Source of the DNA: Naegleria gruberi
Lineage: Eukaryota
DNA length: 64,000 nucleotides
Assembly: GCA_000004985.1 (NCBI GenBank)
Contig: GG738924.1
Strand: one strand, 5' to 3'
Every line of letters starts with the position of its first letter. The first letter of the stretch is position 1. The translations under genes were made by a program, and so were the position numbers. A model generated the notes under the pieces. That model did no database searches and was not told where the DNA came from. It saw nothing but the letters and a program-made list of their open reading frames with translations. Below are positions 3,337-51,296 of the stretch, in pieces.

Positions 3337-3545
3337 TTTTTTTCTTGGTTTTGGCGTACTTGAACATTTTTATTTTTGGGTTACAAAATACACTTCGAAT
3401 TTTCGCTGGAACTCAAAGAAAATTTGCAGTAATCGGTGGTTTCACACTTTAAAAAAAAACGAGTTCTCATTCCAACAAGTAACACCCACGCAGTTGTTGT
3501 AGTTTGGAAGAGGAACTTTGAGATTTTTGCAAAAAAAAACAAAAG

Positions 3546-3581
3546 TGGAGTCATAGGGAATCGAACCCTAGACCTTCTGCA

Positions 3582-3612
<31 letters not shown>

Positions 3613-3618
3613 AACCCC
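3546..3618 (-). tRNA. tRNA-Ala, anticodon UGC. 73 nt, CCA not encoded.
   Basis: The reverse complement folds as a canonical cloverleaf: GGGGTTA acceptor, TAGCTCAGTTGGTAGAGC D-arm, anticodon loop TTTGCAT, T-arm GGGTTCGATTCCC. It has the G3:U70 alanine identity pair. Confidence 0.9.
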
Positions 3619-8668: not shown

Positions 8669-11600
8669 ATGAAAAAGATATCAACCTTTTTAAAGAGGAA
8701 GGAAAGTGAACATAGATCAAAGCATGCCAGCAATAGCAGCTCTGGGAGTTCTCCAATCTCTCCGAATCATCAAGGCTTTGTGATGGTTGAACATGAAGAC
8801 GCCATTCTAATTTCTAAAAACAGCAGCACAACAAGTTCAACAGCTGTGGAATGGAATGAAAAGCTTGAAGAGGATTTCAAGCAATACTTGGACAAAACCT
8901 TCAAGAATCAAACTGAAACAATAGAAAAGTTGATGGCCCTTCCACCAAAGAAAAAGATGGAAATTCTCAAATTGAAGCAATCTCAGATCAGTTCTCAGAA
9001 CAATATCTTACTTCACTTGGAAACAACAATGAATAACATCAAACATCCGCTCTCCACCTTGACACTACATACGCAACTGAAGGAATTGAGAGTTGTCTTG
9101 TCAAACTATGCCGAAGCAGAAGAAGCATTCATCAATAGAGGTGGTGTTGATTTCACCATGAAATCTCTTTCCAATAATCTCGGTAATCTGAATGGAGCTG
9201 CAGACGAGAATAACAAACTCTTGTTTGCTGAAATTACCATCTCTATTATTATGATCTTGACTCAAATTTGCAAAAACAATGAAGGATTGGAAAAGTTTTT
9301 AGAATATCCAAATAGTATTGAAGAAATCTCCAAGGCTCTCTTACTGGAACATGAAGATAAGGGTCAGAGGAACTCGATATATTTCCTATTGTCATCATTG
9401 TGTTTTTGTAGGGATGGTACCTACGTTCCACAAGTTTATGAATCTGTTAAGAATTTGTCAAAAATTAGAGGTGAAGAACAATTCTTAACTGTTGTGCAGC
9501 ATTTGAGAGAGGCCAACAGTTTAAAGAGCAGATACATCATTCTGGCCTTTATCAATATTTTGATGAGGCAAGCTCCTGTTCAATTCAGAAGAGAGCTAAA
9601 GCAACGATTTATCAGCGCAGGTGTTTATACTGAGGTTAAAAAACTGGAAAAGATTAAAGTGGAAAATAAGGATACAGAGGATGCCCTCAAGCTAAGCAAC
9701 CAAATAGAAATTTTCAACAAGATTATTTCTGGAGATTTAGAAGAAGATATTTTTGATGATTTGAGAGAAATTGTCGAAGAATTAGAAAATTCTAATGTTC
9801 CTCTAGCTGAGGGAATTAAGGCAGTTTCTGAAAAGATGTTGGAGAAATGTAATCAAACTTCGTAAGTTTTAAACAGTTTCAACATCATTAATTATTTATT
9901 CAACAACAGATCAAGTTTGGAATGGGTCAATGATATCAAAATAATTTTGGAGGGAAGTGAATCTGTAAACTTGTTAAAAGATAGAAATCTCTCACTTCAA
10001 AAACAAGTGGATACCATTACAAAAGATAATGCACAATTAAAAGATCAAATGGAAAAGCTAAAAGTCAGAATTGAAGCTTTGGAGAAGGCACCACCAACAG
10101 TTATTGTGAAAAAGGTTGCAGTTGTAAGACAAGTTGGAGAATTGAAATCGTCTGGTTCCGGTAGTAATCTTGCAGGTTTAGTGGAATCCAATTCACCGAC
10201 AACATCACCTCCTAATATTTTTCCAGATGATACAGTTCCCTCTTGTAACAGCTCTGTTCCACCACCTCCTCAAGCTAGCTCTGTAGTGCCTCCACCTCCA
10301 GGAATGGGAGGTGTTGTTCCTCCACCACCAATTGGTTCAAGCTCAGTTCCTTTGCCTCCCATGACCATCAGTAGCTCTGTTCCTCCTCCACCTGTGGGGT
10401 TCAATAGTTCTGTTCCACCTTCGTCATCTATTCCTTTACCACCAGTAATGGGAACTGTTCCACCAAATTCTGCCATTCCTTTGCCACCAGGAATGAATAG
10501 CTCTGTTCCAATGCCTCCAGGTATTCCTGTACCACCAGGAATAGAAATGCCAGTGGTAGGAAGTACTGTTCCTCCTCCTCCAGGTTTTGGTGGCGTTCCT
10601 CCTTCTGGGTCTGTTGTTCCTCCACCTCCAGTTGGAATGACTAGCTCAGTACCATTACCTCCAGGAATGGGAGTATTGTTCCTCCACCGCCTTTCTCAAA
10701 TGTACCAATGCCTCCTGGTTTTGGAGGTGTTCCACCTCCTCCTGGAATGAATGGTACTGTTCCAGTTCCTCCACTAGGAGTGGGAATGCCACCCCCACCA
10801 ATGTTTGGATTTGTACAAACACCACCTGTTATTGCAAGTGCTCCAAAACTTCCAGACATACCTAAGAAGAAGGCTTCTGTGCCCACTAAGGACGTAAGAC
10901 TCAACAAACTAGATAATAACAAACTTCAAAAGTCTGTTTGGATGAAGAAGAACATTCATGCCAAGTTATTCGATATTGATATTCCAGAAAAAGAATTAGA
11001 AGATATGTTCGCTCAAATTTCTAAATCCCCTAGTGTAGGTTTAACTCCAGAAAAGTCAGAAAAACCAAAGGATACAACAATAAGTTTATTGGAAGGACCT
11101 AGATTGCAAAACGTTTCCATCTTTATGAAATATCTCAAGATGCCTTCAACTCAGTTGGTTGAAAAGATAATGACCATCTCTGATGATTTTAATGAGGAAT
11201 CAATTGGAAAATTGTTGAATCAAGTTCCTAATGAAGATGAAATTCAAAGACAAAATGATTTTGATGGAGATGAAGCCACATTGAATGAAGCCGATAAGTT
11301 TATCAGAGCCATGATGAAGGTTCCGAGACTTGCTTCCAGATTGAAATGTTGGAATTTCAAGTTGAAATATGTTGAAACAAAGGCTTGTATCAACCCAGAC
11401 TTGGAAACCATCATTTCAACATGTGCTAGTTTGGTAGAATCTGAAAAACTTCAAGAATTGTTTGCTGTCATTTTGGCTTTCAGTAATTACCTTAGCAGGA
11501 CTGGTATCCATGGATTCAAATTGAACTCTCTCCAAAAATTAAAAGAAACAAAAGGTAATGCTAAGAACATTACGCTCCTTGATATGATTGTCAAGCATAT

Positions 11601-12639: not shown

Positions 12640-13602
12640 ATGATTCACAAGATTTCGTTACTTCTCTTGCTTGTTTCATGTTCTTGTTTAATGATGAGAA
12701 TTTCGGAGGCAAGTGGAATTGATTTTTCATCGGAAATTGTTTATTGGATTGGTGCTAATCCTCATGGTTATTGGCAAGATCCATCCAATTGGGAAAATCA
12801 TCAAATTCCAACAATGAATCAAACAGCAATTATTAAACATTCCAAATTGAGAATTTTACCTGATTTGGATGTTATTAAAGTGAAGCGAATAATTGTGGAA
12901 AGTAATATTGCCACAAATCAAAGCTTCAAACAAGATGAAAATTTAATACTCATTGAAAATCCAATTCTCATTTCGAATGGCATTGAAATTGGTGAATTTT
13001 CAAAAGTGATTTTCAATGAAAATGTTGCTTGTTTGGAAGATTTTAATTGTCAATTGAATGTGAGAGGAAAAGTTGAAGTTTTTGATGGTGGAAGGGTTGG
13101 TTATTGGAATGAGAAATGGAATGGGTTTCGAATGGAAACTTGTTTGAAGAATTCGCAAGCTTCGTTCAAGATTTCGAATAAGAAAATCATGTGGAATGAA
13201 ACGAAATCAATTGAGGAGTGGAAAGATTCTTTGGACGGAGAGTTTGGGGAACTTTTTGCTAATCATGAAATTTTACTGTTTGTTCCCTCGACTCGAAATG
13301 TTAATGAACAAATTTCGAATGAAGAATTGGAAACTCTATTAGAAAGGATAATTTCAGATATTTCTCATATTGTTGGAGGGGTTACTCTCCATCCGAATCA
13401 GAAAGGATATTGGTTGAGTGAACGAGAGGGACTTGTCAGCGAATTAGTTAACATTATTTCTGTAAGCGTTCCGGATAATTTGTTGGTCGAAACAAAACGA
13501 AAGGTCAAGGAAATTTCGTTGCAATTACTTGAAGAATTGAATCAAGAAGCAATATTTGTAAAGATTGACTCTAATTCCTTTCTGCTAACCAAGAATAAAT
13601 AA
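12640..13602 (+). CDS. Hypothetical secreted protein (N-terminal signal peptide)
   Basis: ATG at 12640 gives MIHKISLLLLLVSCSCLMMRISEA, a hydrophobic signal-like N-terminus, followed by about 300 aa with no recognised domain. TAA stop. Confidence 0.45.
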   Translation: MIHKISLLLLLVSCSCLMMRISEASGIDFSSEIVYWIGANPHGYWQDPSNWENHQIPTMNQTAIIKHSKLRILPDLDVIKVKRIIVESNIATNQSFKQDENLILIENPILISNGIEIGEFSKVIFNENVACLEDFNCQLNVRGKVEVFDGGRVGYWNEKWNGFRMETCLKNSQASFKISNKKIMWNETKSIEEWKDSLDGEFGELFANHEILLFVPSTRNVNEQISNEELETLLERIISDISHIVGGVTLHPNQKGYWLSEREGLVSELVNIISVSVPDNLLVETKRKVKEISLQLLEELNQEAIFVKIDSNSFLLTKNK

Positions 13603-13957
13603 CTTTCTCTACCGAATCTACTCATTTAATAATGGATGCATTTCGAATATAAAACTATTCGAATCTGGGTTACCAATATCACTTTAAATGAACCAATGGT
13701 GCTAGAAATAAGGTATGAGAACATGAATTTGAAAACTTGTCATGTGAAAAACCAAATTTTACCAAATTAGAAACTGAAAGTGGCCGAAACTTTTACAGAA
13801 CAAGGATTTTTATGGATTTGATGACACAATTAATCTCAATTTTTCAGGAGCATTGAAATGACAGGCAAACAAATTACTAAAAAGGCAAATTTTAAAAACC
13901 TGCCCAACAATAAAGTTATTCGAAACTATCTGAAAAATTGACCTAAAAAAACAAAAC

Positions 13958-16090
13958 ATGACTCACAAGAATAACTCTACCACCAACAATACCACAACGT
14001 CTTCATCCATTGACCAAAATGCTACCACTTTTCAATTTCAATTTGTCTTTGACAAGGTCATGCTCAACCAAAGAACATTGAAATTATTCAAAGAATTTCT
14101 AATGAAGAGTTTACATTCCCCAGAAGCTATCCTCTTCTATGAGAAAGTTCTCGAATTTAAATCATTCGAAGGACAAGCTCTGACTGAACATCAGACGAAA
14201 CTTGCTTAGAATATTGTGGAGAATGTTATTTTTGTTGGCTCCGCGCATGAAATTAACATTGGAAAAAGAGAGAGAAATCAGGTACTTGAGAGGGTGAAGA
14301 GATTATTAGGTAATAACCCACAAAGAAGTGAAGTTGAGTTGCAATATTTTTCGAATAGTAAGCAAACGCTCAATAAGAAAGAAACCGAAAGTGATGAACA
14401 ATCAGAAACTTCAACAAATAAGCAAAAGAGCTTTTCTTCGATGAATGAGACTTCTACCTTCATAATGGTCGATCCAATTAACATTTTTGATGAAGCATTA
14501 GTGACAGTTAAGAGACAACTCAAAGAAGACGTGTTTCCACTTTTTTTGAGAAGTGACAGATTTCTGACATTTTGTAAGAAGGCATCGAGAGAAACTCTGG
14601 GAGAGATTGGTTATGAGAGAAGACAGTGTCGTCAATCTGGCAACGTTTCTATTGAAGATTTTTGGAAATTTTACAGAGCTGATTGTGAATCTCTAAATGT
14701 CAATGGTCAAGATGTCAAATTTTTAAGCTCTTTATCAATAGATAGTTCTGATTGGACTCTATTAGAGCAAGAATACTTTAAAAAGAGTTGTTTTGCAACA
14801 TTTGTTTCATCTGAAACTCATTGCATGATTAGACCAGAAACTTCCGAATATAGAAATCCAAATTCACAACATATTTACAAATGTACAGGTGTCATTAATC
14901 ACTCAACTGAGAAAGTATTGAAAGCTCTGACAGATTCTCACTTTATGGCCACTTATGATAATAATTTAGCTGTTTGTGAATGCATTGATTTTGTAAATTC
15001 TCAAATTCAAAGCAATTCTCTTCCTGAATCATTATTCGAATTGGACGAAACTGTTCAATTCTCCTCCTCTATCATTCTACAAAATTATCCTTTCAACTGG
15101 CCACTTTCTGGAAGAGATTTCCTCACCAGTCAAACAGATGTCTATGAAAAATCCACTCAACGTTATTTCATTCTCATCAAATCTGTCAACCATCCACTTG
15201 CCAAACCAAAAGAAGGAAGTGTCAGATCTTATCTTGTCGGTGGTTGGATTATTCAACCAATTTCTGATGAATTCTCACGATATACTTTGGTCAATTATAT
15301 GGATGTGAATATGAGTGAAAAATTAGTTCAGCAATTTCAACTGAGGAGAGGAAAGAAATTATTCCATTCGTTGAATAAGATATTGAAAGAGATGGACAGG
15401 AGTTCAATGAATGAGGTGAATGATTCGTGTGGTTTATTGGAAACTTTGGACGAATTTTTGGATTTATACGAAATTAACATTGATGACCAATATAGGAAAG
15501 TGAAGAAACTAAACAAGATGGAAATGAAGGAACTTCTCACTCCAAGAAAAACTCACCTCGCAAGCACTTCTACCTCAAATCTCGACCACCTTTCGAATAA
15601 GATTATTCGATTGACCTACATTTCCAAATGTAAGAAAAATTTCAATTCTACAGAGCTTGACAAGATTGCAACCACTGCAACTCGATTCAATTCCAGTATC
15701 AACGTAACTGGTCTCCTTCTCTATTGTAAAGAAGGAATTTTCTATCAAGTATTAGAAGGTGAAAAAGAATTAGTTTCAAATCTATTCGAAAAGATTAAGA
15801 AAGATTCGAGACATTTCGATGTGAAATGTGTCAAAATGGAAACAGATTTATGTGATCGTGATAGACAATTCAAGGGATGGGCCATGAACACAGTTAACTT
15901 GGAAACGTCAGATCATTTCTTTGCTGATTTTATGAAAGAATTATTAGTGACAGTTTCAAAGATGGAGCTCAATAACATGACAGAAGATCAAGCTGTTGGG
16001 TTTATATTCAAGACATCGAGGCAGATGTTTGAGAAGAGTAGGGAGAGCGGATTTGTTTCGAGATTAGGTTCTTGTTTTTGTATGAAATAA
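13958..16090 (+). CDS. RGS domain - START-like lipid-binding domain - BLUF photosensor domain protein. ORFs 13958..14209 and 14216..16090 are in the same frame, interrupted only by an in-frame TAG at 14207..14209.
   Basis: RGS: FQFQFVFDKVMLNQRTLKLFKEFLMKSL...FDEALVTVKRQLKEDVFPLFLRSDRF, aligned by memory colinearly to RGS4 with the TAG at the RGS4 KKIY helix position. START-like: SGRDFLTSQ...ILIKSVNHPLAKPKEGSVRSYLVGGWIIQP...TLVNYMDVN. BLUF (about 15595..15900): IIRLTYIS...INVTGLLLYCKEGIFYQVLEGEKELVSNLFEKIKKDSRH...FKGWAMN, with the photoactive Tyr, Gln and Trp/Met positions conserved (AppA-like). Confidence 0.8.
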
Positions 16091-16472: not shown

Positions 16473-19400
16473 ATGAGCAGCGTTGAATATCAGCACGGCA
16501 ATGAAGTGCTTTTCATAAAGAAGGGAAGTAGTGGCGAGTCAACCAACAACAATAATAACGCGATGACCACAGAAAGTAATGATCATAAGGCACAGGAATT
16601 GGCTCATCACGGCGATTCGAAGGATGAACATGTTGATAGTCAACATCATCACCCGAAAGGACCGTTTACATTAACGGCAGATGAATTGTCAGAGATGCAT
16701 CAGAATAAGGATTTGAAAGGGTTGCAAAAGATGGGTGGAATGTCTGGTTTGATGAGAGATTTGAAAACTGATGCAAAGAGGGGGATTGCCTGGAAGTCGA
16801 ATTATCAAAGTTATGATGAGAGGACGAATCTGTATGGTCTTAATGTGTATCCTGAACCGCCGGCTAAAGGTCTCTTCAAAATATTCTTTGAGGCTCTATC
16901 AGACGAAACTCACATTATTTTAATGATATTCGCCTTCATTTCGATGGTGTTGGGATTGGCATTTCCTGAATCTGAAGAGGAAAGACCAATTGGTTGGATT
17001 GATTCGTTTGCAATTTATATAGCTGTAGCTATTGTTTGTGTGGTTACAACCGCCAACGACTATTCGAAAGAGAAAAAGTTTAAAAACTTGTCAAGAGAAT
17101 CCAAAAAGGTAATGGTTAAGGTTATTAGAGATGGGGAAAATTTTAGCGTTCTCACTGATGATATCAGAGTTGGAGATATTGTTGAAATTGAACAAGGAGA
17201 TGGTATTCCAGCTGATGGGCTCTGTATTGAATCAAACCATTTGAAAACAGACGAATCTGTCATGACAGGAGAACCAGATTTGATTAAGAAGAATACAACA
17301 GAATTAATTTTCTTATTGAGTGGTTGTACAGTTGCTGAAGGTTCTGGAAAGATGCTTGTTACAGGTGTTGGTGTTGGAAGTGAATGGGGAAGAACCTTGC
17401 AAAGTTTGAAAGAAGCCAATGAAGAACAAAGAGAAACTCCTCTCGAAGCCAAATTAGATAAGCTCGCCATCAATATTGGTAAAGTTGGTACTGCATTTGC
17501 GATTGGTACTGTTACCATTTTGATTTTGGCCTTTTGGATTAAGAAATTGATGTACACTTCAACTTGGGTTGAGGCCTCATCAACATTTGAAGAAACTTGG
17601 CAAGAAAAGAATGTAGTTGATGTGGTCAAGTACTTTATTATTGCTTTGACTATTGTCGTCGTTGCTGTCCCTGAAGGTTTACCACTTGCTGTCACAATTG
17701 CTCTTGCTTACTCTGTTCGTAAAATGATGAAAGATCAGAATTTAGTTAGACACTTGGCAGCTTGTGAGACTATGGGTGGTGCTAACAATATTTGTTCTGA
17801 CAAGACTGGTACACTTACTTTGAATCAGATGAGAGTTACCCAAGCTTATTTTGGAGATCGATTCTTTGGTGAGCAATTGAGCTCAATACTGTTGACATTG
17901 AAATCACCACTGTTGCAAGTAATCATTGATGGTATTGTTGCCAATTCAAAGGCAAACTTGGTCAAGGGTGATGACAATAATAAGAATAAGGAGTATGCCA
18001 CTCAAGGAAGTAAGACTGAAGCTGCTCTTTTACTTTTACTTGTCAAACATTTGAATCAGACCATTGACAGTTACAAAGATAGAAGAAATGAATTGCTAAG
18101 TGAAGAAAGAGGCTCTCACCTCCAACTTCCATTCAATTCCAACTTGAAGCGTATGAGTACCATCGTTACAAACTCTGAGGGAGAAACCAGATATCGTCTC
18201 TTCACAAAGGGTGCTTCTGAAATTGTCCTCAAATTGTGCTCCTATCACATGGCTAGTGATGGTTCATTGAGAAAGATGGATTCTGAAAAGGAAGCTGAAA
18301 TGATGAAATGTATTGAAGATATGGCTAATCAAGGTTTGAGAACAATTTGCTTGGCCTACAGAGATGTCAATCCAGAAGTTGAATTCTCATCACGAGCTGA
18401 TGAAGAAAATTATTTAGAAAATATTGATCCAGTTACCTTGGAACAAGATTTAGTATGTATTGGTATTGTAGGCATTAAGGATCCATTGAGACCTGAAGTA
18501 CCAGCAGCTATTGAACAATGTAAGAAATCAGGTATCACTGTCCGTATGATTACAGGTGACAATATCTTGACAGCCAAGTATATTGCCAGAGAGTGTGGTA
18601 TCTTGTCGAAGGATGGTATTGCTATTGAAGGCCCAACATTCAGAAAGATGACTCCAGAGCAAATTGATGAGATTCTTCCAAAATTACAAGTTATGGCTCG
18701 TTCCTCACCAACTGACAAGTTTATTCTTGTAAAGCATTTGAGAAAGAAGGGTAACGTTGTTGCTGTGACTGGAGATGGTACCAATGATGCTCCAGCTCTT
18801 AAAGAAGCCGATGTTGGATTGAGTATGGGTCTTAGTGGAACCCAGGTTGCTAAGGAAGCTTCTGATATCATTATTTTGGACGATAACTTCTCATCCATTG
18901 TTAAGAGTGTGTTGTGGGGTCGTTCCATTTACGAGAATATCAGAAAGTTTTTAGTTTTCCAATTGACAGTCAACGTGGTTGCTTTGATTTTAACAATTGT
19001 TTCTGCTGTTTCGTCTGCTTTCCAACATAATTCTTCCTATAGGCCACCTTTGAGTCCTGTACAAATGTTGTGGATCAACTTGATCATGGACACGTTTGCA
19101 GCTCTCGCCCTTGCCACAGAACCTCCAATTCCAGAACTTTTAGACAGAAAACCTCACGGAAGAAAGGATTCCCTCATTACAATGAGAATGTGGACCTTCA
19201 TTGCTGCTGAATCAATCTTCCAGCTCACTGTCATGTTCACACTCTTCTATGGAGCAACCTCATTCAGAGGACTTTCATTCAGCTTAGCCAGAAATGATGC
19301 TGAAATGAGAACCATCATTTTTAATGCTTTCGTATTTTGTCAAGTTTTCAATCAATTCAACGCAAGAAAGATTAATTTTGAGTATGATATTTTCAGAGGA

Positions 19401-19724
19401 GTTTTCAAGAGTTTCTGGTTTATTGGTATCACCATAATGATTTTCATTTTACAAATTGCCATCATTAACTTTGCCTATTATGATCCAATTCTTATTGGTT
19501 TGGGTAAGAATGATGGTTTGACTGCCTCCAATTTTACCCAGACCATTCCATTGAATTGGTATCAATGGGCCATAACTATTTCCATTGGTTTCATCAGTAT
19601 TCCATATGGCTTTTTAGTGAGATTCGTCAGCAGAATGTTTTTGAAATTATTGAGCTTGAAGAAGAATAACAGACAAATTACCAGTGATGGCTACGAGGAA
19701 ACCTATTCCAAAGCAAGTGAATAA
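16473..19724 (+). CDS. Plasma-membrane-type Ca2+-transporting P-type ATPase (PMCA, P2B)
   Basis: Motifs CSDKTGTLT (phosphorylation site), TGDGTNDAPALKEADVGLSMG, PEGLPLAVT, 10 predicted TM segments and a PMCA-like N-terminal region. Single 1083-aa ORF. Confidence 0.9.
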   Translation: MSSVEYQHGNEVLFIKKGSSGESTNNNNNAMTTESNDHKAQELAHHGDSKDEHVDSQHHHPKGPFTLTADELSEMHQNKDLKGLQKMGGMSGLMRDLKTDAKRGIAWKSNYQSYDERTNLYGLNVYPEPPAKGLFKIFFEALSDETHIILMIFAFISMVLGLAFPESEEERPIGWIDSFAIYIAVAIVCVVTTANDYSKEKKFKNLSRESKKVMVKVIRDGENFSVLTDDIRVGDIVEIEQGDGIPADGLCIESNHLKTDESVMTGEPDLIKKNTTELIFLLSGCTVAEGSGKMLVTGVGVGSEWGRTLQSLKEANEEQRETPLEAKLDKLAINIGKVGTAFAIGTVTILILAFWIKKLMYTSTWVEASSTFEETWQEKNVVDVVKYFIIALTIVVVAVPEGLPLAVTIALAYSVRKMMKDQNLVRHLAACETMGGANNICSDKTGTLTLNQMRVTQAYFGDRFFGEQLSSILLTLKSPLLQVIIDGIVANSKANLVKGDDNNKNKEYATQGSKTEAALLLLLVKHLNQTIDSYKDRRNELLSEERGSHLQLPFNSNLKRMSTIVTNSEGETRYRLFTKGASEIVLKLCSYHMASDGSLRKMDSEKEAEMMKCIEDMANQGLRTICLAYRDVNPEVEFSSRADEENYLENIDPVTLEQDLVCIGIVGIKDPLRPEVPAAIEQCKKSGITVRMITGDNILTAKYIARECGILSKDGIAIEGPTFRKMTPEQIDEILPKLQVMARSSPTDKFILVKHLRKKGNVVAVTGDGTNDAPALKEADVGLSMGLSGTQVAKEASDIIILDDNFSSIVKSVLWGRSIYENIRKFLVFQLTVNVVALILTIVSAVSSAFQHNSSYRPPLSPVQMLWINLIMDTFAALALATEPPIPELLDRKPHGRKDSLITMRMWTFIAAESIFQLTVMFTLFYGATSFRGLSFSLARNDAEMRTIIFNAFVFCQVFNQFNARKINFEYDIFRGVFKSFWFIGITIMIFILQIAIINFAYYDPILIGLGKNDGLTASNFTQTIPLNWYQWAITISIGFISIPYGFLVRFVSRMFLKLLSLKKNNRQITSDGYEETYSKASE

Positions 19725-27269: not shown

Positions 27270-30200
27270 TTACAAATCTTCATCATCTTCCTCATCGTCA
27301 TCATCAAATTCTTCATCACTGGCATCATTATCAGTTGTTCCAGTCATTGTAAAGTTTTCCATATCCGCATCGAACAATGTTAACATGGCATCTTCTTCCT
27401 CCAAGATTGCCTCTGGTGAAATAAATGATTGTCCAAAGCTGGCTGTACTGTTTTGTCTGGAAAGCATCTTACTGGTATCATCAGAACATGAAGAAATTGT
27501 GCTGGAAAGTGGAGAAGTTGGTGGTAAATCGGTTCCCAATTGTTGTTTCTCCAATTGTTGTTGCTTTTCCAATTGTTTTTTGAGTTTCTTTTCCTTCTTT
27601 TTCTTTTCTCTCTTGTGTTTCTTGATGGTTGCTGCAAGACTCTTGTTTCTGATATTTCTACCCATTTTCAAGTCATTGTAGAGAGTTGCTGACATGTCGA
27701 CTCTTTCGGCAGCTTCCTTGCCCATGCAGGAAATGACATGTTTCCAAACAGGATCTTCTTCTGGAATAACTGGAATGCTGTTAATGTTCTTTCGAATATA
27801 ATCATTGAAACCTTTCATCATACCCTTGGCACGATCCATTCTCAACAAGTTGATGGCAAATCTGGCATTTCCACCAACATCCAACAAGTGAATTTGAGTA
27901 ATATTAGTTCTATAAGAGTCAAGTTTCTTAATGGAATAGTATTGGAAATCTCTGATATCAATGAGCTTCTTTCCTTCATTGACGCCCTTGCCATCCATGT
28001 AAAATCTTTCGTGTTCGCATGGTTTGTAGAGGAGTGTTAATTTTTCTTCATTCTTATCATAGTAAGCTGTACAAACACTCAAGAAACTTCTCTTTGTTGT
28101 GAATGGGAATGGGAAACCAACTCCGTATCTGATAACACCACATGACCTAGGACCTCTCTTGAATTTCTCATTTGGATACATCTTTTTCAAAGTTTCAAAA
28201 TCATAGAATGATAATTCTTCACAGGAGGTAATATTTGGATCGTATTTGTGAACTTGCAATCCTGGCATGCAACATTTCTTGACAGCGTCAAAAGGAAATG
28301 GTAAAATACCTGTCCACTTGTTAATTTGCATTTTCTGATAGAATCCAACGTTAGGGAAGAGTACCTTTTCTGATAATTTATATACATTGATAGCTCCTTC
28401 CTTCTTGGATCCCAATAATTTCCATTGATAATCATCTCTTGCCAAGTATTCCATAAATTCAATGTCCCTGTCAAAGACAAATGGTAATTTAAAGTCTTCA
28501 TCTCCGTATGGATAGTAAGTGGCTTCCTTGAGACGTCCAACTTTGGTCAAATAACTCAAACCTTTGTGTTGTAATTTCTTAAACCACACATCACTTCTCA
28601 CAAACCTAGGGAAACTGTCATTTTCCAATTCATACATGACAGAATTCTTCATTGTACGGAACAACAAGTGTGGAGGTTGTGGCAACAACCATTCATCAAA
28701 TTCCTGATATTGTTTTGATTCTTGGAAGAGTCCAACAAAGGTACGTTTGTCACGAGAGGAAATGTTAATTTCCTTCTTTGAATCTTCCTCAATAAAATCT
28801 TTCATAATTTGAATTGCTAACATGATTTGCTTTCTGTAAACTTTGAGAACTTGATCATATTTGGAACGTGGAGTATTTGGTGGAAGTGTAAGGAATGCGT
28901 GTTGGAGAGATCTTGGTCTATCTCCAGATGTTCTTGATGAGCTACCTGAAATATCAGAACGTTCAGAAGTTGGATCATCCTCAGGTGATGCAACTCCATT
29001 CCTCAATTCTTCCTTCTTCTTTTCCTTCTTTTCAGTGAGAACTGTCAAGAGACTCTTCATGCCATTGTCTTCTTGTCCACTATTACTTGAAGCACCAACT
29101 GGGGTACTATCTTCACTTTCACCACTTTCACTCTTTTCAACGAGTCCCAAGTTTAATTTTGGTAATGCTCTTGGAGTTGGTGTGGTAAGAGAAATACCAG
29201 GTTCTCCTACAGTACCAGAAGTGCCATTTGTTGCATGTTCATTGGTGAAGTGTTCAGTTGTTTTGATTGTGACCACCTCAGCATCAGTTTCAGTTGCCTT
29301 TACAGTTGGCACATCCTTCAAAATCATGTCCATCAAGGTGGTTTCTTTCTTTTCAGATGGAGAGGTTGGATTTGAATGTGGAGTATTGACATTACTATTT
29401 GTATTGCTATTTGGATTGCTTGCAGTTGCATTTTGATCCTTCTTCTTTTTCAAAATGGAAAGTCTCAAACTAAATCTATTAGACTTTTCAGATTCGTCAT
29501 CTTCTGCATCATTGGTAGTTGGAGTACTATTAGTTTGTGGTGTATTTGCTTTAGTTTCATCCACCTTTGGCTTTTTACCCAATCCAAAGAATGATAATTG
29601 TTTCTTGGCTGCTTTTCTTGGTGTAGTTGGTTCAGATTCAGATTTGGATGGTGATTTAGTCTTATCATTTTGAGTCATCATGAGCATCATCTTTGGTAAA
29701 TCAGAGAATGGAGTTTTAAAATGTGAAAAAGTGGCTGATGAGCCAGATCCAGAATTTGACAAGGAAGATGCAGCAGAACCACCTTCAAGAGCCAAATTAG
29801 CATTAGCAGTTTGAATATCCTTGACCATTTTCATCATTTTGTAATAGGTAAATTCCAATTCATTCACTCGAGTAATAAATTCCAAAGGTTCTGTATTGTG
29901 TTCAGTTTCCAAATATCTGTAAAAGGCACGAAACATGGTTCTATCTGTGAAAATTCCCTGGAATGAGAATAAATAATCTTCCAAATTGGTTTCAACGAAT
30001 AATTGTTGTTGAGATGGCAACTTGCCAGTTTTTGAAATGTGTGAAGAGGAGGCAACAGTTGACAATCCTCTCTCTGCAGAACCTGATGATTTCTTAGTTG
30101 GCAGTGAAAAGATCATTGGTGTTTCCTTATATCTCTTTTCATCTGCATCTATTTTAGTTTCAATGGTTGGTGTAGCTTGACCATCTTCACTACCATTTTG

Positions 30201-30572
30201 TGCTCCTGCTGATGTTGTTGTCGATGATGATGTTGAATTGTTTTTATCATGTGAAGAATTGGTTCTGAAACGATTGAAAAGTTTGGAAGCAAATGAAGAT
30301 GTGTGAGTTTTCTGAGTTGGAGTGGATGTAGTAGTATTTGGAGTTGAGGAGGTTTTGGTATTGCTATTCTTTCCATTAGATGTAGATGTGGTGATGGTGT
30401 TATTATTGGAAGTAGATGTGGAAATGTTGGTATGTTCGTCTTCATCATCCTCTTCTTCCTCTTCGACTGCTCCCAGGGCTTCTATATTCACTCCATATAA
30501 TGTATTATTATTATTATTATTAGCAGTATTATTATTATCATTATTATTGGTTGGATGTGGTGGAGGTTTCAT
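27270..30572 (-). CDS. RGS-domain protein with a C-terminal START-like domain. It is a paralog of the 13958 and 49755 genes and has long low-complexity linkers.
   Basis: RGS N-terminal half FSFQGIFTDRTMFRAFYRYLETEHNTEPLEFITRVNELE and C-terminal half DSFPRFVRSDVWFKKL. The START-like C-terminus is TKRSFLSVC...LYKPCEHERF...ITQIHLLDVGG...FAINLL. Single 1100-aa ORF. The S/T/N-rich and acidic tracts are typical of this genome. Confidence 0.6.
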   Translation of the reverse strand: MKPPPHPTNNNDNNNTANNNNNNTLYGVNIEALGAVEEEEEDDEDEHTNISTSTSNNNTITTSTSNGKNSNTKTSSTPNTTTSTPTQKTHTSSFASKLFNRFRTNSSHDKNNSTSSSTTTSAGAQNGSEDGQATPTIETKIDADEKRYKETPMIFSLPTKKSSGSAERGLSTVASSSHISKTGKLPSQQQLFVETNLEDYLFSFQGIFTDRTMFRAFYRYLETEHNTEPLEFITRVNELEFTYYKMMKMVKDIQTANANLALEGGSAASSLSNSGSGSSATFSHFKTPFSDLPKMMLMMTQNDKTKSPSKSESEPTTPRKAAKKQLSFFGLGKKPKVDETKANTPQTNSTPTTNDAEDDESEKSNRFSLRLSILKKKKDQNATASNPNSNTNSNVNTPHSNPTSPSEKKETTLMDMILKDVPTVKATETDAEVVTIKTTEHFTNEHATNGTSGTVGEPGISLTTPTPRALPKLNLGLVEKSESGESEDSTPVGASSNSGQEDNGMKSLLTVLTEKKEKKKEELRNGVASPEDDPTSERSDISGSSSRTSGDRPRSLQHAFLTLPPNTPRSKYDQVLKVYRKQIMLAIQIMKDFIEEDSKKEINISSRDKRTFVGLFQESKQYQEFDEWLLPQPPHLLFRTMKNSVMYELENDSFPRFVRSDVWFKKLQHKGLSYLTKVGRLKEATYYPYGDEDFKLPFVFDRDIEFMEYLARDDYQWKLLGSKKEGAINVYKLSEKVLFPNVGFYQKMQINKWTGILPFPFDAVKKCCMPGLQVHKYDPNITSCEELSFYDFETLKKMYPNEKFKRGPRSCGVIRYGVGFPFPFTTKRSFLSVCTAYYDKNEEKLTLLYKPCEHERFYMDGKGVNEGKKLIDIRDFQYYSIKKLDSYRTNITQIHLLDVGGNARFAINLLRMDRAKGMMKGFNDYIRKNINSIPVIPEEDPVWKHVISCMGKEAAERVDMSATLYNDLKMGRNIRNKSLAATIKKHKREKKKKEKKLKKQLEKQQQLEKQQLGTDLPPTSPLSSTISSCSDDTSKMLSRQNSTASFGQSFISPEAILEEEDAMLTLFDADMENFTMTGTTDNDASDEEFDDDDEEDDEDL

Positions 30573-38076: not shown

Positions 38077-39552
38077 ATGTCCCTCAAACTCCAAGTCTAT
38101 GAAGATGTGGCTGAACAACAACAACAACAATGGCCTGATGTTTCCCTCCGTAAGCAACTCTCCCAATCCGACCCCAAATGGTTCATCAAGCCTTCTAATT
38201 ATTCTCACTTGGCAGAGTTGGAGATTTATCCAAGAGTTTTCCTTGGTTCTCAGTGGGAAGCAAAGGATCCAGACTGGTTTCAAACTCACAGAATTTCCCA
38301 TGTTTTGAATGTGAGTACGCTGCAGAATACCTTCCAGAAGAAGCCTTTGTATTATAGTAATTTATCAACAAATTCCTCATCGGATCCAGAGAATACAAAT
38401 CCAAATATTATGATGATGAATAGTATGAGTAGTGGTGGTAGTCATAGTGTAAATAAGAATACAACATTGAGTGGTAAACAACAGGTACATGTAAATTATT
38501 TAAAGATTAATGTTGATGATTCGACGGATGTGAATGTGAGAAAGTACTTTGAAAAGGTGATTGATTTTGTGAGGGATGCTTTGGAAGGATCCCCAACAAG
38601 TAATGTTTTAATTCATTGGTATGTTTTGTTGTTGTTTGATGATGAAGTTAATAATAATATTATTGTTGTTATTTGTTATATTGATGATGTTTGAAATAGT
38701 AAGGAAGGTAAATCTAGATCAGTGACCATGATGTTAGTGTTCGGAATGGCTTACTTTGATTTATCACTCTATGAAGCATATAAACACTTTGAAAATAAGA
38801 CTTTTAACAGATCGAGAATTAATTTGGGATTTCAATTACAATTGATGAATTATGAAGTGGAATTGTTGGAGGCAAAAGGTGTGGAAAAACCAAAGAATTC
38901 GCTGGATTTCCTTAATCAAGCAGCAGTTAATAGTTGTCGTAGTAATGTTACACAACCTCAACCAATTCAAATCACAACAACAGAAGAACAATCAAAGAGA
39001 CCTCGAAGAAATACCAAAAAGACACCACTCTCGGATATTACTAATACTGGAGCCACTACTTTACAGCCACCACCATCAAAAGCAAAGAAATCTACTGTTA
39101 AGGTACTTCCAAAGAAGACAAAGAATGCAACAACACCTATTCCACAAATAATTCCACCAATAATTAATATTGAAGAAGATATTCCTGAAATACCCTCAAT
39201 TGTTGAGAATAGTAGCATCTCAATAGATCAACAACAAGAAAACCAACCTGTTACACCTTTGAGAAGTCCAATAAGATCGAGAAGATCGAGTCGTAAAACA
39301 CCTTCTTCTATCATTAAGATTCCATTCTCAACACTGGACAATGCATCCTATGTTTCTCCAATGAAAAACAAGATGCCACCAACACCATTGGGAACTCCTT
39401 CTATCACTAATGACATTATAATAGATGATTATTCTACATTGGAATTTAAATTTGATGAGGATGATTTGGAAATTTCTAAAGGACTCGAAGATAGAGTATT
39501 CATGACAACTCCACTCAAAAAGAGAAAGACTGACGAAGATATTATGCAGTAA
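38077..39552 (+). CDS. Dual-specificity protein phosphatase (DUSP) with a long S/T/P-rich C-terminal tail. Exons are 38077..38618 and 38700..39552. The intron 38619..38699 is 81 nt (GTATGT...ATAG).
   Basis: DUSP N-terminal fold IYPRVFLGSQWEAKDPDWFQTHRISHVLNVS. Splicing reconstitutes the catalytic loop VLIHCKEGKSRSVTMMLVFGMAY (HCxxGxxRS). Unspliced, the frame runs into a stop after HWYVLLLFDD. Confidence 0.8.
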
Positions 39553-49754: not shown

Positions 49755-51296
49755 ATGAGTAATAATAGCACATCACAACAGAAGAAACGAAAATTCGAAA
49801 CCAACCGATATATGGTTGTTTTTGAGGAGTTGCTGAGAGCTCCAGAAGCAAGAGAAAATTTCAGAGGTTTTCTCAAACTGGTTCATTGTGAGGAACCTCT
49901 TCAATTGATCGATGCCATTGATTCATACAGAACCGAACATAAAAAGCTAATAGATAATATTGATGACAGTGCTTCCGATTTTGATTTTCAAGGTTTTAAA
50001 AAGATACTACTCCTTGTGAATCAACTTGAAAATATTGTAAATACCTTTGGATTGGAAGATTCTATTGAAAAGTTTTCACATTATTATATGGGTGCTTGGA
50101 CTCGTACACTGAATCTCTACCATCTTGTAACACTAAAATTGGAATCCATTTCCAACTCTAACAAAACTAACAACAAGCAAATATTTGAAATTTTAGAAAT
50201 TTTAAATCCTTCCAATATTTTGGAAGATGTAGAGACAAAGGCAATTCTTGATTTGAAATATGATGAATTTCCAAGGTATGCCAGGTCGAATACGCTTCAC
50301 TTGTTTCTTGTACGAAAGGGTGAAGAATATACGAGAAGAATTGCTATTAATATTGCTAACGATTTTTATGTAGATATTAGATTTAAACCTAAAGATTTTG
50401 AATCTCAATTAATGACTGATAAGGATGTTTATTTTGCTTATACATTGAGTGAAGATACACCTGATTGGAAAGAATTAACTTGTAGCGAGAAACCTAACTT
50501 TTTACAGACCTTTGTTTCAAAAACAGTTTATTCAATAGGACCAGACGAAATGAAAGGAATGAGATTATTTAAATTGGTAATGCATCTGCCCTATGCAGTT
50601 GAAGATGTTTGGGCTACGTATTGTGATATGAATACACGATTCAAACTTGATCACACTCTCATGAAAGATTTCAAATTGCTGAGATATATTCCACCACATC
50701 AGAAGAAATCAAGTGAGCAACGAGATTCCATTTCATTTTATGAGATATTTGATGAGAGAGATAATCGATACACTGTGGATAAACCACCACTTGCCATTCA
50801 GATTGGAGCTCTGGGTATTGAAATGCACATTCCACTATTGAAACACAGAGACTTGCCACATACAATGACTTCACTTTATGATCCCTCGGTGAATTGTTAC
50901 ATGAACATTGGTCACACGTGCAAGATTGAGGAATCACTCAGGCGTGCACCTACAGATAGAGTCAAGTCTGAAATTTTGTTCAATTACATGTTCTTTGGTA
51001 CTGGAGAAAAATCAACAAGATTTATTCACACAGTGTATACAGACCTACATGTTCCTTTGGATTCTGATTTTGTTTTGAGTAAGATTTGGAAGAATAGAAG
51101 CAAACAATTACAGGCCTCATTTGAAGAATTACTAGCAGAAAAAACCAAGGGAGGAACCATTTCCATTGACAAATCTATGGTGAATGATCATTTCAAATAT
51201 TTTACAGCTGTGGAAGACAATGCCAAATTGAATAGAAAGTGGTACAGAGATTATTTGAGAAAGAAAAATCAAATGCAAATTGAATATGGTGATTGA
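49755..51296 (+). CDS. RGS-domain protein with a C-terminal START-like region (third paralog of the RGS-START family)
   Basis: RGS N-terminal half MVVFEELLRAPEARENFRGFLKLVHCEEPLQLIDAIDSY and C-terminal half DEFPRYARSNTLHLFL, with an insert between them. The C-terminal region of about 300 aa has START-like landmarks (RDSISFYEI..., ...FIHTVYTDLHVPL...). ATG...TGA. Confidence 0.5.
   Translation: MSNNSTSQQKKRKFETNRYMVVFEELLRAPEARENFRGFLKLVHCEEPLQLIDAIDSYRTEHKKLIDNIDDSASDFDFQGFKKILLLVNQLENIVNTFGLEDSIEKFSHYYMGAWTRTLNLYHLVTLKLESISNSNKTNNKQIFEILEILNPSNILEDVETKAILDLKYDEFPRYARSNTLHLFLVRKGEEYTRRIAINIANDFYVDIRFKPKDFESQLMTDKDVYFAYTLSEDTPDWKELTCSEKPNFLQTFVSKTVYSIGPDEMKGMRLFKLVMHLPYAVEDVWATYCDMNTRFKLDHTLMKDFKLLRYIPPHQKKSSEQRDSISFYEIFDERDNRYTVDKPPLAIQIGALGIEMHIPLLKHRDLPHTMTSLYDPSVNCYMNIGHTCKIEESLRRAPTDRVKSEILFNYMFFGTGEKSTRFIHTVYTDLHVPLDSDFVLSKIWKNRSKQLQASFEELLAEKTKGGTISIDKSMVNDHFKYFTAVEDNAKLNRKWYRDYLRKKNQMQIEYGD

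What the first reader, a model, noticed from the sequence alone, without database searches (positions are those of the whole stretch)
14207..14209. In-frame TAG inside the RGS domain of the RGS-START-BLUF gene
ORFs 13958..14209 and 14216..16090 are in the same frame, separated only by a TAG. In an alignment by memory to RGS4, the TAG falls where RGS4 has the KKIY helix (ours: KLA*NIVENVI), with no gap. That points to a single-base change from a sense codon (TAT/TAC Tyr is the best guess), not an intron; no GT...AG pair is available around it. It is either a base-call error, a strain-specific nonsense allele (which would separate a truncated RGS fragment from a START-BLUF protein if translation re-initiates), or very recent pseudogenisation. 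Nearly every other gene in the window ends in TAA.
Basis: seen in the sequence. Interest (0 to 1): 0.5.

Follow-up and report, generated by a model that had tools for sequence, protein, structure and literature searches.

The report
Premature stop in blue-light sensor gene
One copy of a Naegleria gruberi gene for a three-domain blue-light sensor protein carries a premature stop, where a glutamine codon became TAG; a second copy in the same genome assembly still has glutamine, so this is an ordinary broken allele or a base-call error, not an unusual mechanism.

Summary
TAG at 14207-14209 is the only stop in a 711-codon frame (13958-16090), and it lies inside a Pfam RGS match. The window is Naegleria gruberi NEG-M. 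The protein is RGS-START-BLUF, confirmed by Pfam, an AlphaFold2 model and Foldseek. The stop is not in an intron: real introns here start GTAAGT or GTATGT, and every in-frame GT..AG pair that removes the TAG has a poor donor and deletes RGS sequence. A second N. gruberi copy on a different 40.9-kb scaffold (XP_002668848.1) reads ...TKLAQNIVE..., and the Willaertia magna orthologue has Ala-Gln (GCT CAA). The likely change is therefore CAG to TAG at base 14207, aligned with RGS4 K112 rather than Y115. The two N. gruberi copies differ by 19 substitutions and 2 in-frame indels between residues 16 and 163, then are identical to residue 319. The second copy is thus a real diverged sequence, either a haplotig or a duplicate. 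I cannot tell a true nonsense allele (about 0.6) from a consensus error (about 0.3) without reads. TAG ends other genes here, so the code is not reassigned. By-product: this full-length photoreceptor gene appears to be missing from the public proteome, and its only model is a chimera.

The parts
13958..14206 (+). 5' part of the gene: ATG plus 83 sense codons, covering the low-complexity N-terminus and the first part of the RGS domain up to the helix at residues 77-82
   Evidence: An in-frame TGA lies upstream at 13931. AF2 helices H31-36, H38-52, H56-68, H77-82.
14207..14209 (+). In-frame TAG (codon 84). It is aligned with Gln in the second N. gruberi copy and in Willaertia magna, and with RGS4 K112.
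14210..16090 (+). Rest of the reading frame: 626 sense codons plus TAA, covering the remainder of RGS, then START and BLUF, with no further stop or frameshift
14048..14326 (+). RGS domain, main Pfam match (residues 31-123), running through the TAG
   Evidence: PF00615, E 2.7e-11 with X at the stop. HMMER alignments to RGS17 and CG5036 structures.
14462..14590 (+). C-terminal RGS helices (residues about 169-211), following a low-confidence insert at residues 135-168
   Evidence: second aligned stretch to 4igu_A and RGS17; AF2 helices H178-197 and H200-208
14705..15403 (+). START-like lipid-binding fold (residues about 250-482)
   Evidence: Foldseek against pdb: STARD5 2r55_A E 1.7e-10 with TM(target) 0.77, also STARD4, STARD10, StAR and CERT. 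Pfam START hits 5 of 11 family members but not this sequence alone.
15605..15886 (+). BLUF flavin blue-light sensor domain (residues 550-643). Y554 and Q597 are nearly invariant, and W641 and M643 invariant, in the family alignment.
   Evidence: PF04940, E 6e-25; family conservation; 38-39% identity to the OaPAC/bPAC BLUF domains in the structural alignment
14003..14446 (+). Block in which this copy differs from the second N. gruberi copy (XP_002668848.1): 19 amino-acid substitutions including the stop, plus 2 in-frame indels. Residues 164-319 downstream are identical.
14225..14227 (+). Codon 90, GTT (Val), where the second copy and 21 of the 22 other family members aligned have Phe or Tyr (the exception has His). 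This is the only other departure from a conserved RGS position in this copy.
   Evidence: V90F adds 6.1 bits against a family profile
14441..14443 (+). First in-frame ATG after the stop (549 codons to TAA). It is the only plausible re-initiation site and would give START-BLUF without most of the RGS domain.
   Evidence: Three out-of-frame ATGs (14223, 14247, 14394) lie between the stop and this ATG.

Best explanation
The TAG is a single-base nonsense change of a glutamine codon, most simply CAG to TAG (C to T at 14207). It lies in this copy of an intronless gene for a 710-residue RGS-START-BLUF protein of Naegleria gruberi NEG-M.

Shown: the stop lies in continuous RGS-coding sequence. Gln is the residue in the two closest relatives. 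The same genome assembly holds a second, diverged copy with the codon intact. Nothing else in the 711 codons is broken.

Inferred: the T is really in the DNA, and the window carries a null or strongly hypomorphic allele. It probably sits on one of two diverged haplotypes of this locus, or less likely on one of two recent segmental duplicates. Translation from ATG 13958 would stop after 83 residues, before the RGS helix that begins at residue 86, so no functional RGS domain is made. START-BLUF could then arise in only two ways. One is rare near-cognate readthrough of UAG, which in yeast inserts Gln, Tyr or Lys and so could restore the original residue. The other is inefficient re-initiation at ATG 14441.

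Because the rest of the gene is intact and every family-invariant residue is present, the change is recent.
For: Stop, frame and domains.

Organism: the neighbouring ORF 16473-19724 is an exact match to N. gruberi XP_002669620.1, on a 196,593-bp contig.

Second copy: P0003 = XP_002668848.1 / NAEGRDRAFT_76231 on a 40,920-bp contig. It is not encoded elsewhere in the window. It has Q at the stop position.

Differences between the copies: 19 substitutions (at least 22 nucleotide changes) and two indels of 2 and 1 codons, with no frameshift or stop, all within residues 16-163. Residues 164-319 are then identical. Read errors would not stay in frame like this, so the second copy is a real coding sequence.

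Willaertia magna orthologue: Ala-Gln, GCT CAA, at the same column. CAG makes up 19 of 93 Gln codons in four genes of this window, so CAG at this site is plausible.

Integrity downstream: all 27 invariant and 20 near-invariant columns of an 11-member family alignment are kept in the window protein, including BLUF Y554, Q597, W641 and M643. The AF2 model has mean pLDDT 78.6 with clear START and BLUF matches.

Weak sign of relaxed constraint on this copy's RGS domain: Pfam RGS scores 45.3 bits against 54.6 for the second copy. A profile of 22 relatives gives 120.9 against 128.3 bits, mostly because of Val90 at a conserved aromatic position.

Re-initiation context. Amino acids inserted at UAG in yeast: PMC4150775.
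Against: No reads, traces, quality values or transcripts could be examined, so a consensus error cannot be excluded. It is somewhat more likely where diverged haplotypes were assembled separately at about half coverage.

I therefore do not know whether its Gln codon is CAG or CAA. CAA would need two steps to reach TAG. I also could not compute dN/dS or tell a haplotig from a paralogue.

About 12% amino-acid divergence over residues 16-163 is high for alleles. The 'relaxed constraint' signal rests essentially on one residue (V90).
Confidence: 0.6

Rival explanations
1. Base-call or consensus error in the Sanger draft assembly: the organism has CAG (Gln) here and the gene is intact.
For: It is a single-base difference from the residue seen in both closest relatives. 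Nothing else in the 711 codons is damaged and all family-invariant residues are present. The site lies in a block where two diverged copies were assembled separately, which halves effective coverage. The window has assembly gaps (N runs 58051-60503 and 62981-63030).
Against: Every other in-frame stop I examined between long frames in the 64-kb window is explained by a canonical intron, so the local error rate looks low. A C to T substitution is not a typical Sanger artefact such as a compression or homopolymer slip. The same copy also carries Val at a conserved aromatic position six codons downstream. In a heterozygous genome, real nonsense polymorphisms are expected to outnumber consensus errors that happen to create stops; this is an inference and was not measured.
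Confidence: 0.3
2. The TAG is real, but the two copies are paralogues from a recent segmental duplication that includes the RGS-START-BLUF gene and the adjacent PMCA gene, not alleles. The window copy is then a young pseudogene whose function is covered by the other copy.
For: Protein divergence of about 12% across residues 16-163 is high for alleles. The abrupt switch to 100% identity looks like a gene-conversion tract. The second scaffold is collinear: the P0003 model ends in the last 58 residues of the PMCA.
Against: The large main scaffold would then hold the broken copy and a 40.9-kb scaffold the intact one, which is the usual pattern for a haplotig. No second PMCA protein exists in the 90% cluster of XP_002669620.1. 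Order and completeness on the 40.9-kb scaffold could not be examined.
Confidence: 0.2
3. Programmed stop-codon readthrough or recoding: UAG is decoded, for example as Gln, at a useful rate, so the gene makes both an 83-residue fragment and the full-length photoreceptor.
For: The residue expected at this position (Gln) is one of the amino acids that near-cognate tRNAs insert at UAG in yeast (PMC4150775). The downstream frame is perfectly preserved.
Against: The context is TAG AAT ATT. It has neither the CARYYA motif after the stop nor a C at +4, the contexts known to favour readthrough (established knowledge). The second N. gruberi copy and Willaertia simply encode Gln, so the stop is not conserved. 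TAG terminates other long ORFs in the window and no other gene has an in-frame TAG, so the code is not reassigned. The only tRNA in the window is tRNA-Ala.
Confidence: 0.03
4. The TAG lies in a short spliceosomal intron that is removed from the mRNA.
For: In-frame stops inside short introns do occur in this window: TAA at 9863-9865 and TGA at 38692-38694. An in-frame 63-nt GT..AG interval, 14147..14209, ends exactly at the TAG.
Against: Its donor is GTTCTC, whereas real introns here have GTAAGT or GTATGT. The interval encodes VLEFKSFEGQALTEHQTKLA, which aligns with RGS helices in solved structures. That stretch is translated in the annotated second copy and in the intronless Willaertia gene. 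All 70 in-frame GT..AG options have poor donors and delete conserved sequence.
Confidence: 0.01

Closest known systems
XP_002668848.1 / EFC36104.1 (NAEGRDRAFT_76231), 'predicted protein' of Naegleria gruberi NEG-M, on a 40,920-bp scaffold
   Same: Residues 1-318 are collinear with residues 1-321 of the window gene at 92% identity in tblastn, and residues 164-319 of the window protein match it exactly. It has the same RGS domain (Pfam 54.6 bits) and the same start, MTHKNNSTTNN.
   Different: It has Gln where the window has TAG. It differs by 18 further substitutions and 2 in-frame indels within residues 16-163. It also has Phe at the conserved aromatic position where the window has Val90. The model is a chimera: after K319 it jumps to the last 58 residues of the PMCA gene. 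The junction falls exactly on a GT (window 14915) and an AG (window 19540-19541). This is a predicted 4.6-kb intron, not a real fusion. It therefore lacks most of START and all of BLUF.
KAL9658754.1, hypothetical protein ABK040_005909 of Willaertia magna (Heterolobosea), 644 aa
   Same: Full-length RGS-START-BLUF orthologue at about 42% identity. It is intronless, with Ala-Gln (GCT CAA) at the column of Ala-TAG.
   Different: It has no premature stop and a shorter insert inside the RGS domain. Its genomic neighbours are different, with no PMCA gene next to it.
R4/RZ-type RGS domains with solved structures (RGS17 6am3/1zv4, RGS1 2bv1, Drosophila CG5036 4igu) and RGS4
   Same: The helical RGS fold is recognisable by sequence (E 5.5e-06 to 4e-03). 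The Asn equivalent to RGS4 N128 is present, as N100 in EINIG.
   Different: The RGS domain here is split by an insert of about 45 residues at low confidence (135-168). The position equivalent to RGS4 N88 is Ala (SPEA instead of SEEN), so GAP activity is not assured. It is fused to START and BLUF domains.
RGS-LOV photoreceptors of fungi (BcLOV4), in which a flavin blue-light sensor controls membrane-lipid binding next to an RGS domain (Glantz et al. 2018, as cited in PMC8993538)
   Same: An RGS domain is combined with a flavin blue-light sensor and a lipid-interacting element. This suggests light-controlled membrane or G-protein signalling.
   Different: The sensor is BLUF, not LOV, and the lipid module is a START fold rather than a polybasic helix. 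The lineages are unrelated. This is a functional analogy only; nothing was tested.
BLUF photoactivated adenylyl cyclases (OaPAC, bPAC; Naegleria PACs)
   Same: The BLUF domain is 38-39% identical in the structural alignment at rmsd 1.7-2.0 A. The Tyr/Gln and Trp/Met positions are conserved within the RGS-START-BLUF family.
   Different: There is no cyclase domain. BLUF is C-terminal and follows the RGS and START domains.

Membership tests
RGS domain (Pfam PF00615) | Score above the curated Pfam gathering threshold (23.9 bits) | tested here: met
   44.3 bits with X at the stop and 45.3 bits with Q. The match, residues 31-123, spans codon 84.
RGS domain (functional GAP) | G-alpha contact residues equivalent to RGS4 N88 and N128 | tested here: inconclusive
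   The N128 equivalent is present (N100, nearly invariant in the family). The N88 equivalent is Ala (SPEA), read from the sequence against the alignments. GAP activity cannot be tested with these tools.
BLUF (Pfam PF04940) | Pfam score above threshold, plus the photoactive Tyr and Gln and the Trp/Met of the fifth strand | tested here: met
   87.6 bits against a cut-off of 25. Y554 and Q597 are nearly invariant, and W641 and M643 invariant, in the family alignment, and all four are present. Structural match to OaPAC/bPAC BLUF.
START domain (Pfam PF01852) | Sequence match to the Pfam START model | tested here: not met
   No START hit for the window protein even at E up to 1. Five of 11 family members do hit START, best E 2.3e-10.
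START / Bet v1-like lipid-binding fold | Helix-grip fold matching solved START structures | tested here: met
   AF2 model with most 10-residue blocks at pLDDT 80-95 across residues 250-482. Foldseek: STARD5 2r55_A E 1.7e-10 with TM(target) 0.77; STARD4 1jss_A TM 0.76; StAR 3p0l TM 0.75.
Spliceosomal intron containing the stop | GT..AG borders with the local donor consensus (GTAAGT/GTATGT), and removal that leaves the domain intact | tested here: not met
   There are 70 in-frame GT..AG options and none has a consensus donor. The stretch is RGS-homologous and is translated in the relatives.
Stop-codon reassignment (UAG = Gln, as in some ciliates and other protists) | UAG used in frame in many genes and not used as a terminator | tested here: not met
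   TAG ends 5 of the 38 long frames in the window. No other long coding frame is interrupted by TAG.
Programmed readthrough site | Leaky stop context (a CARYYA-type motif, or C at +4) and conservation of the stop among relatives | tested here: not met
   The context is TAG AAT ATT. The second N. gruberi copy and Willaertia encode Gln instead of a stop.
Old (decayed) pseudogene | Several disabling lesions (frameshifts, multiple stops) and loss of conserved residues | tested here: not met
   There is one stop and no frameshift in 711 codons. Both indels relative to the second copy are in frame. All family-invariant residues are kept. Only V90 departs from a conserved position.
Heterozygous nonsense allele | Both T and C present at 14207 in reads of the same strain, each linked to its own haplotype, at a single locus | not testable with these tools
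   No reads and no DNA of the 40.9-kb scaffold could be reached. Only the protein of the second copy is available.

The most novel reading that the evidence does not exclude
The TAG is genuine and is used. Near-cognate tRNA-Gln reads through UAG at a low, perhaps regulated, rate. This would restore the ancestral Gln, so one allele yields a trickle of full-length RGS-START-BLUF photoreceptor beside an 83-residue fragment. Alternatively, an internally initiated START-BLUF protein without RGS is made from ATG 14441. Separately, and much more probably, the RGS-START-BLUF architecture itself is an undescribed class of eukaryotic blue-light receptor. It couples a flavin sensor to a lipid-binding START fold and a G-protein regulator, and it is missing from the N. 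gruberi reference proteome because of this stop.
Probability: 0.04. Interest if true: 0.55.

Novelty: new member of a known kind. Interest (0 to 1): 0.25.

Why it matters
The stop itself matters little. It is a routine nonsense allele or consensus error in a draft genome. The practical consequence is for annotation. The only full-length copy of an RGS-START-BLUF gene in the N. gruberi reference appears to have no protein model. The only public model for this gene, XP_002668848.1, is a chimera with the neighbouring calcium pump, so surveys of Naegleria photoreceptors or RGS proteins will miss it or misread it. If the T is real, NEG-M carries one null copy of a putative blue-light signalling gene. 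That is relevant to anyone using this axenic laboratory strain for light-response or G-protein experiments. The domain combination (flavin sensor, lipid-binding fold, G-protein regulator) recurs in Willaertia and in uncultured relatives, and no paper in the searched library describes it. It could interest optogenetics by analogy with RGS-LOV proteins.

Tried and rejected
- **Intron:** I enumerated all in-frame GT..AG pairs around the TAG and compared them with real introns of the window. Rejected.
- **Tyr as the ancestral residue:** rejected by the register of the HMMER alignments and by the two closest relatives.
- **Code reassignment or a suppressor tRNA:** rejected.
- **Word-index homology search with the fused protein:** it returned only one distant metagenomic relative and missed the N. 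gruberi and Willaertia proteins. The exhaustive HMMER search found them.
- **Word-index search with the upstream neighbour ORF 12673-13599:** no hit at all, so I could not test whether the diverged block extends upstream.
- **Exact look-ups:** none of the candidate models is in the collection. I tried the 83-aa ORF, the 624-aa ORF, five Met-start versions, one spliced version and the Gln-fused full length.
- **DNA of the second scaffold or of the window scaffold:** the look-ups by encoded protein returned 'not on record', so dN/dS and haplotig-versus-paralogue tests were impossible.
- **Two metagenome scans:** no close Naegleria relative, only distant BLUF or START-BLUF loci.
- **Polarising the 19 differences between the copies with outgroups:** only two sites are informative (Q84 and F90), both derived in the window copy. 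That is too few for a rate test.
- **Literature:** nothing on RGS-START-BLUF or on NAEGRDRAFT_76231. The 2010 genome paper is not held.
Full report
**Observation.** The sequence reads ...AAA CTT GCT TAG AAT ATT GTG GAG..., with TAG at 14207-14209. Translating 13958-16090 in one frame gives 711 codons whose only internal stop is codon 84. The ORF lister reports 13958..14209 (83 aa) and 14216..16090 (624 aa from a GTG) in the same frame, and the frame is open from 14210. With X at the stop, Pfam finds RGS (PF00615, residues 31-123, E 2.7e-11) running straight through codon 84, and BLUF (PF04940, residues 550-643, E 6e-25).

**Source.** The neighbouring ORF 16473-19724 is an exact match to Naegleria gruberi XP_002669620.1 / EFC36876.1, a plasma-membrane calcium ATPase on a 196,593-bp contig. 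The window is therefore the NEG-M reference assembly. It contains N runs at 58051-60503 and 62981-63030.

**Not an intron.**
- Two other in-frame stops between long frames in the window (TAA 9863-9865 and TGA 38692-38694) lie in short introns with textbook donors: TC|GTAAGT...AACAG and TG|GTATGT...AATAG.
Their donors are GTCTTC, GTCTTT, GTCATG, GTTTAC or GTTCTC.
- The shortest option, 14147..14209, would remove VLEFKSFEGQALTEHQTKLA.
- That stretch aligns with RGS helices of solved structures. It is translated in the annotated second N. gruberi copy, and it has a counterpart in the intronless Willaertia gene.

**The ancestral codon.**
- An exhaustive HMMER search of 1.84 billion representative proteins found P0003, which is 93% identical over query residues 1-321.
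- P0003 is XP_002668848.1 / EFC36104.1 / NAEGRDRAFT_76231, a 'predicted protein' of N. gruberi on a different contig of 40,920 bp. It is not encoded elsewhere in this window.
- It reads ...ALTELQTKLAQNIVERFIVVGSAHEINIG..., where the window reads ...ALTEHQTKLA*NIVENVIFVGSAHEINIG....
- The next relative, Willaertia magna KAL9658754.1 (42% identity, full-length RGS-START-BLUF), reads ...LREAQKIIETFINPHAELCINIG, with codons GCT CAA at the Ala-stop column.
- Across 24 more distant family members the column is variable (Q 5, K 4, A 4, F 3 and others), so only the close relatives are informative, and both have Gln.
- The parsimonious event is CAG to TAG, a C to T transition at 14207. CAG makes up 19 of 93 Gln codons in four genes of the window.
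With N100 of EINIG anchored on RGS4 N128, and IVENVI aligned to IYEDYI of RGS17, codon 84 corresponds to RGS4 K112, not Y115.

**The second copy.**
- A global alignment shows 19 substitutions (at least 22 nucleotide changes) and two in-frame indels (2 codons and 1 codon). All lie between residues 16 and 163 (window 14003-14446).
- Residues 164 to 319 then show no difference at all.
- Random read errors would not stay in frame like this, so the second copy is a genuine coding sequence.
- The last 58 residues of the P0003 model are the C-terminus of the calcium ATPase. The junction falls exactly on a GT (window 14915, AAA|GTATTG) and an AG (19540-19541, CCCAG|ACC).
- The model is therefore a prediction artefact that bridges about 4.6 kb, probably across a gap. 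This also shows that the small scaffold is collinear with this locus.
- A small scaffold that is collinear, partly identical and partly diverged is what a separately assembled haplotype looks like. A recent segmental duplication with a conversion tract is the alternative. About 12% protein divergence over residues 16-163 is high for alleles, so I leave this open: roughly two to one for alleles, given that the stop is real.

**State of the rest of the gene.**
- In an alignment of 11 RGS-START-BLUF proteins, the window protein keeps all 27 invariant and 20 near-invariant residues. These include the BLUF Tyr (Y554), Gln (Q597), Trp (W641) and Met (M643).
- An AlphaFold2 model built on 29 relatives has mean pLDDT 78.6.
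- Foldseek against the PDB finds START proteins for the middle domain: STARD5 2r55_A at E 1.7e-10 and TM 0.77, plus STARD4, STARD10, StAR and CERT. It finds OaPAC, bPAC and PixD BLUF domains for the C-terminal domain.
- Pfam START is not hit by the window sequence alone, but it is hit by 5 of 11 relatives.
- The only other departure from conservation in this copy is Val90, where the second copy and nearly all relatives have Phe or Tyr. It accounts for most of the lower score of this copy's RGS domain: Pfam 45.3 against 54.6 bits, and a family profile 120.9 against 128.3 bits, with V90F alone adding 6.1.
- This is a weak hint of relaxed constraint, not proof.

**Consequences if the T is real.**
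- Termination after residue 83 falls between the helix at 77-82 and the one at 86-91, so no RGS fold can form.
- The next in-frame ATG is at 14441, 232 nt downstream, behind three out-of-frame ATGs.
- Re-initiation after an 83-codon ORF is inefficient in eukaryotes (established knowledge). It would give START-BLUF with only the last RGS helices.
- The stop context, TAG AAT ATT, is not a known leaky context.
- If basal readthrough occurs, the amino acids inserted at UAG in yeast are Gln, Tyr and Lys (PMC4150775), so some product would carry the original residue.
- The code is not reassigned: TAG terminates other long ORFs in the window. The only tRNA in the window is tRNA-Ala.

**Real or error.**
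- Nothing available here can see reads. The window scaffold and the 40.9-kb scaffold are not in the gene-position collection. Two metagenome scans found no close relative. No protein that matches any simple model of the window copy is in the 15-billion-sequence collection.
- For a real allele: the local error rate looks low, since the other in-frame stops examined are explained by introns. The substitution is a plain transition. The same copy carries V90. In a heterozygous genome, nonsense polymorphisms should outnumber stop-creating consensus errors.
- For an error: it is a single base, the gene is otherwise perfect, and haplotypes assembled separately have about half the coverage.
- I put a real change at about 0.6, an error at about 0.3 and everything else below 0.1.

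**Comparison with what is known.** The stop is an ordinary premature termination codon. The gene belongs to a family present in Heterolobosea (Willaertia magna) and in uncultured eukaryotes. One example is metagenomic contig L001, which has an extra GTAAGT intron in the RGS domain. RGS-START relatives without BLUF also exist elsewhere, and two lie in this window. No paper in the searchable library combines BLUF with START domain, or BLUF with Naegleria and RGS, or mentions NAEGRDRAFT_76231. The nearest functional analogy is the fungal RGS-LOV photoreceptor BcLOV4, in which a flavin sensor controls lipid binding beside an RGS domain (cited in PMC8993538). That is a resemblance, not a membership.

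**Verdict.**
- It is an ordinary feature of low intrinsic interest.
- It has a useful annotation by-product: an unannotated full-length RGS-START-BLUF gene and a chimeric public model of its second copy.

Noticed in passing
window 13958-16090, with junction sites at 14915 and 19540-19541: The full-length RGS-START-BLUF gene of this locus seems to have no protein model in public collections. The only N. gruberi model for the gene (XP_002668848.1, on another scaffold) is a chimera: it joins residues 1-319 to the last 58 residues of the neighbouring calcium ATPase through a predicted GT..AG 'intron' of about 4.6 kb.
   Followed up: partly
window 14705-15403 and 15605-15886; L032 6001-7935; L001 1012-3411: RGS-START-BLUF is a recurring architecture. 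It is found in Willaertia magna KAL9658754.1, in several metagenomic proteins, and in 11 aligned members with the BLUF photoactive residues conserved within the family. No paper in the searched library mentions BLUF together with a START domain. It may be a light-regulated lipid or G-protein signalling protein, analogous to fungal RGS-LOV.
   Followed up: partly
window 9862-9908 and 38619-38700: Two short canonical introns (GTAAGT...AACAG in the formin-like gene, GTATGT...AATAG in a dual-specificity-phosphatase-like gene) happen to keep the reading frame. Each contains an in-frame stop (TAA 9863-9865, TGA 38692-38694). They mimic the pattern of the finding but are ordinary introns.
   Followed up: yes
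window 49755-51296 (+) and 27270-30572 (-): Two further genes in the window resemble the RGS-START family without BLUF. Pfam RGS gives E 3.8e-04 (below the gathering score) and 2.5e-08, and tblastn shows about 20% identity to family members. This suggests a local or genome-wide expansion of the family. N. fowleri is reported to have about 80 RGS proteins (PMC9283941).
   Followed up: partly
L001 1277-1430: The metagenomic relative P0001 has a GTAAGT...CTAG intron inside the RGS domain, about 30 codons upstream of the TAG-equivalent site. N. gruberi and Willaertia lack it. The database protein starts at an internal Met because exon 1 (1012-1276) was called as a separate gene.
   Followed up: partly
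window 58051-60503 and 62981-63030: Runs of N (assembly gaps). They create spurious long 'ORFs' in all frames between about 57000 and 61100.
   Followed up: no
window 14309-14440: The RGS domain carries a lineage-specific insert rich in Ser, Thr, Asn and Glu (residues about 118-168, pLDDT below 50 for 135-168). The insert is shorter in Willaertia. It holds 11 of the 19 substitutions and both indels between the two N. gruberi copies.
   Followed up: no
window 3545-3618 (-): A tRNA-Ala (anticodon TGC) gene, the only tRNA in the window.
   Followed up: no
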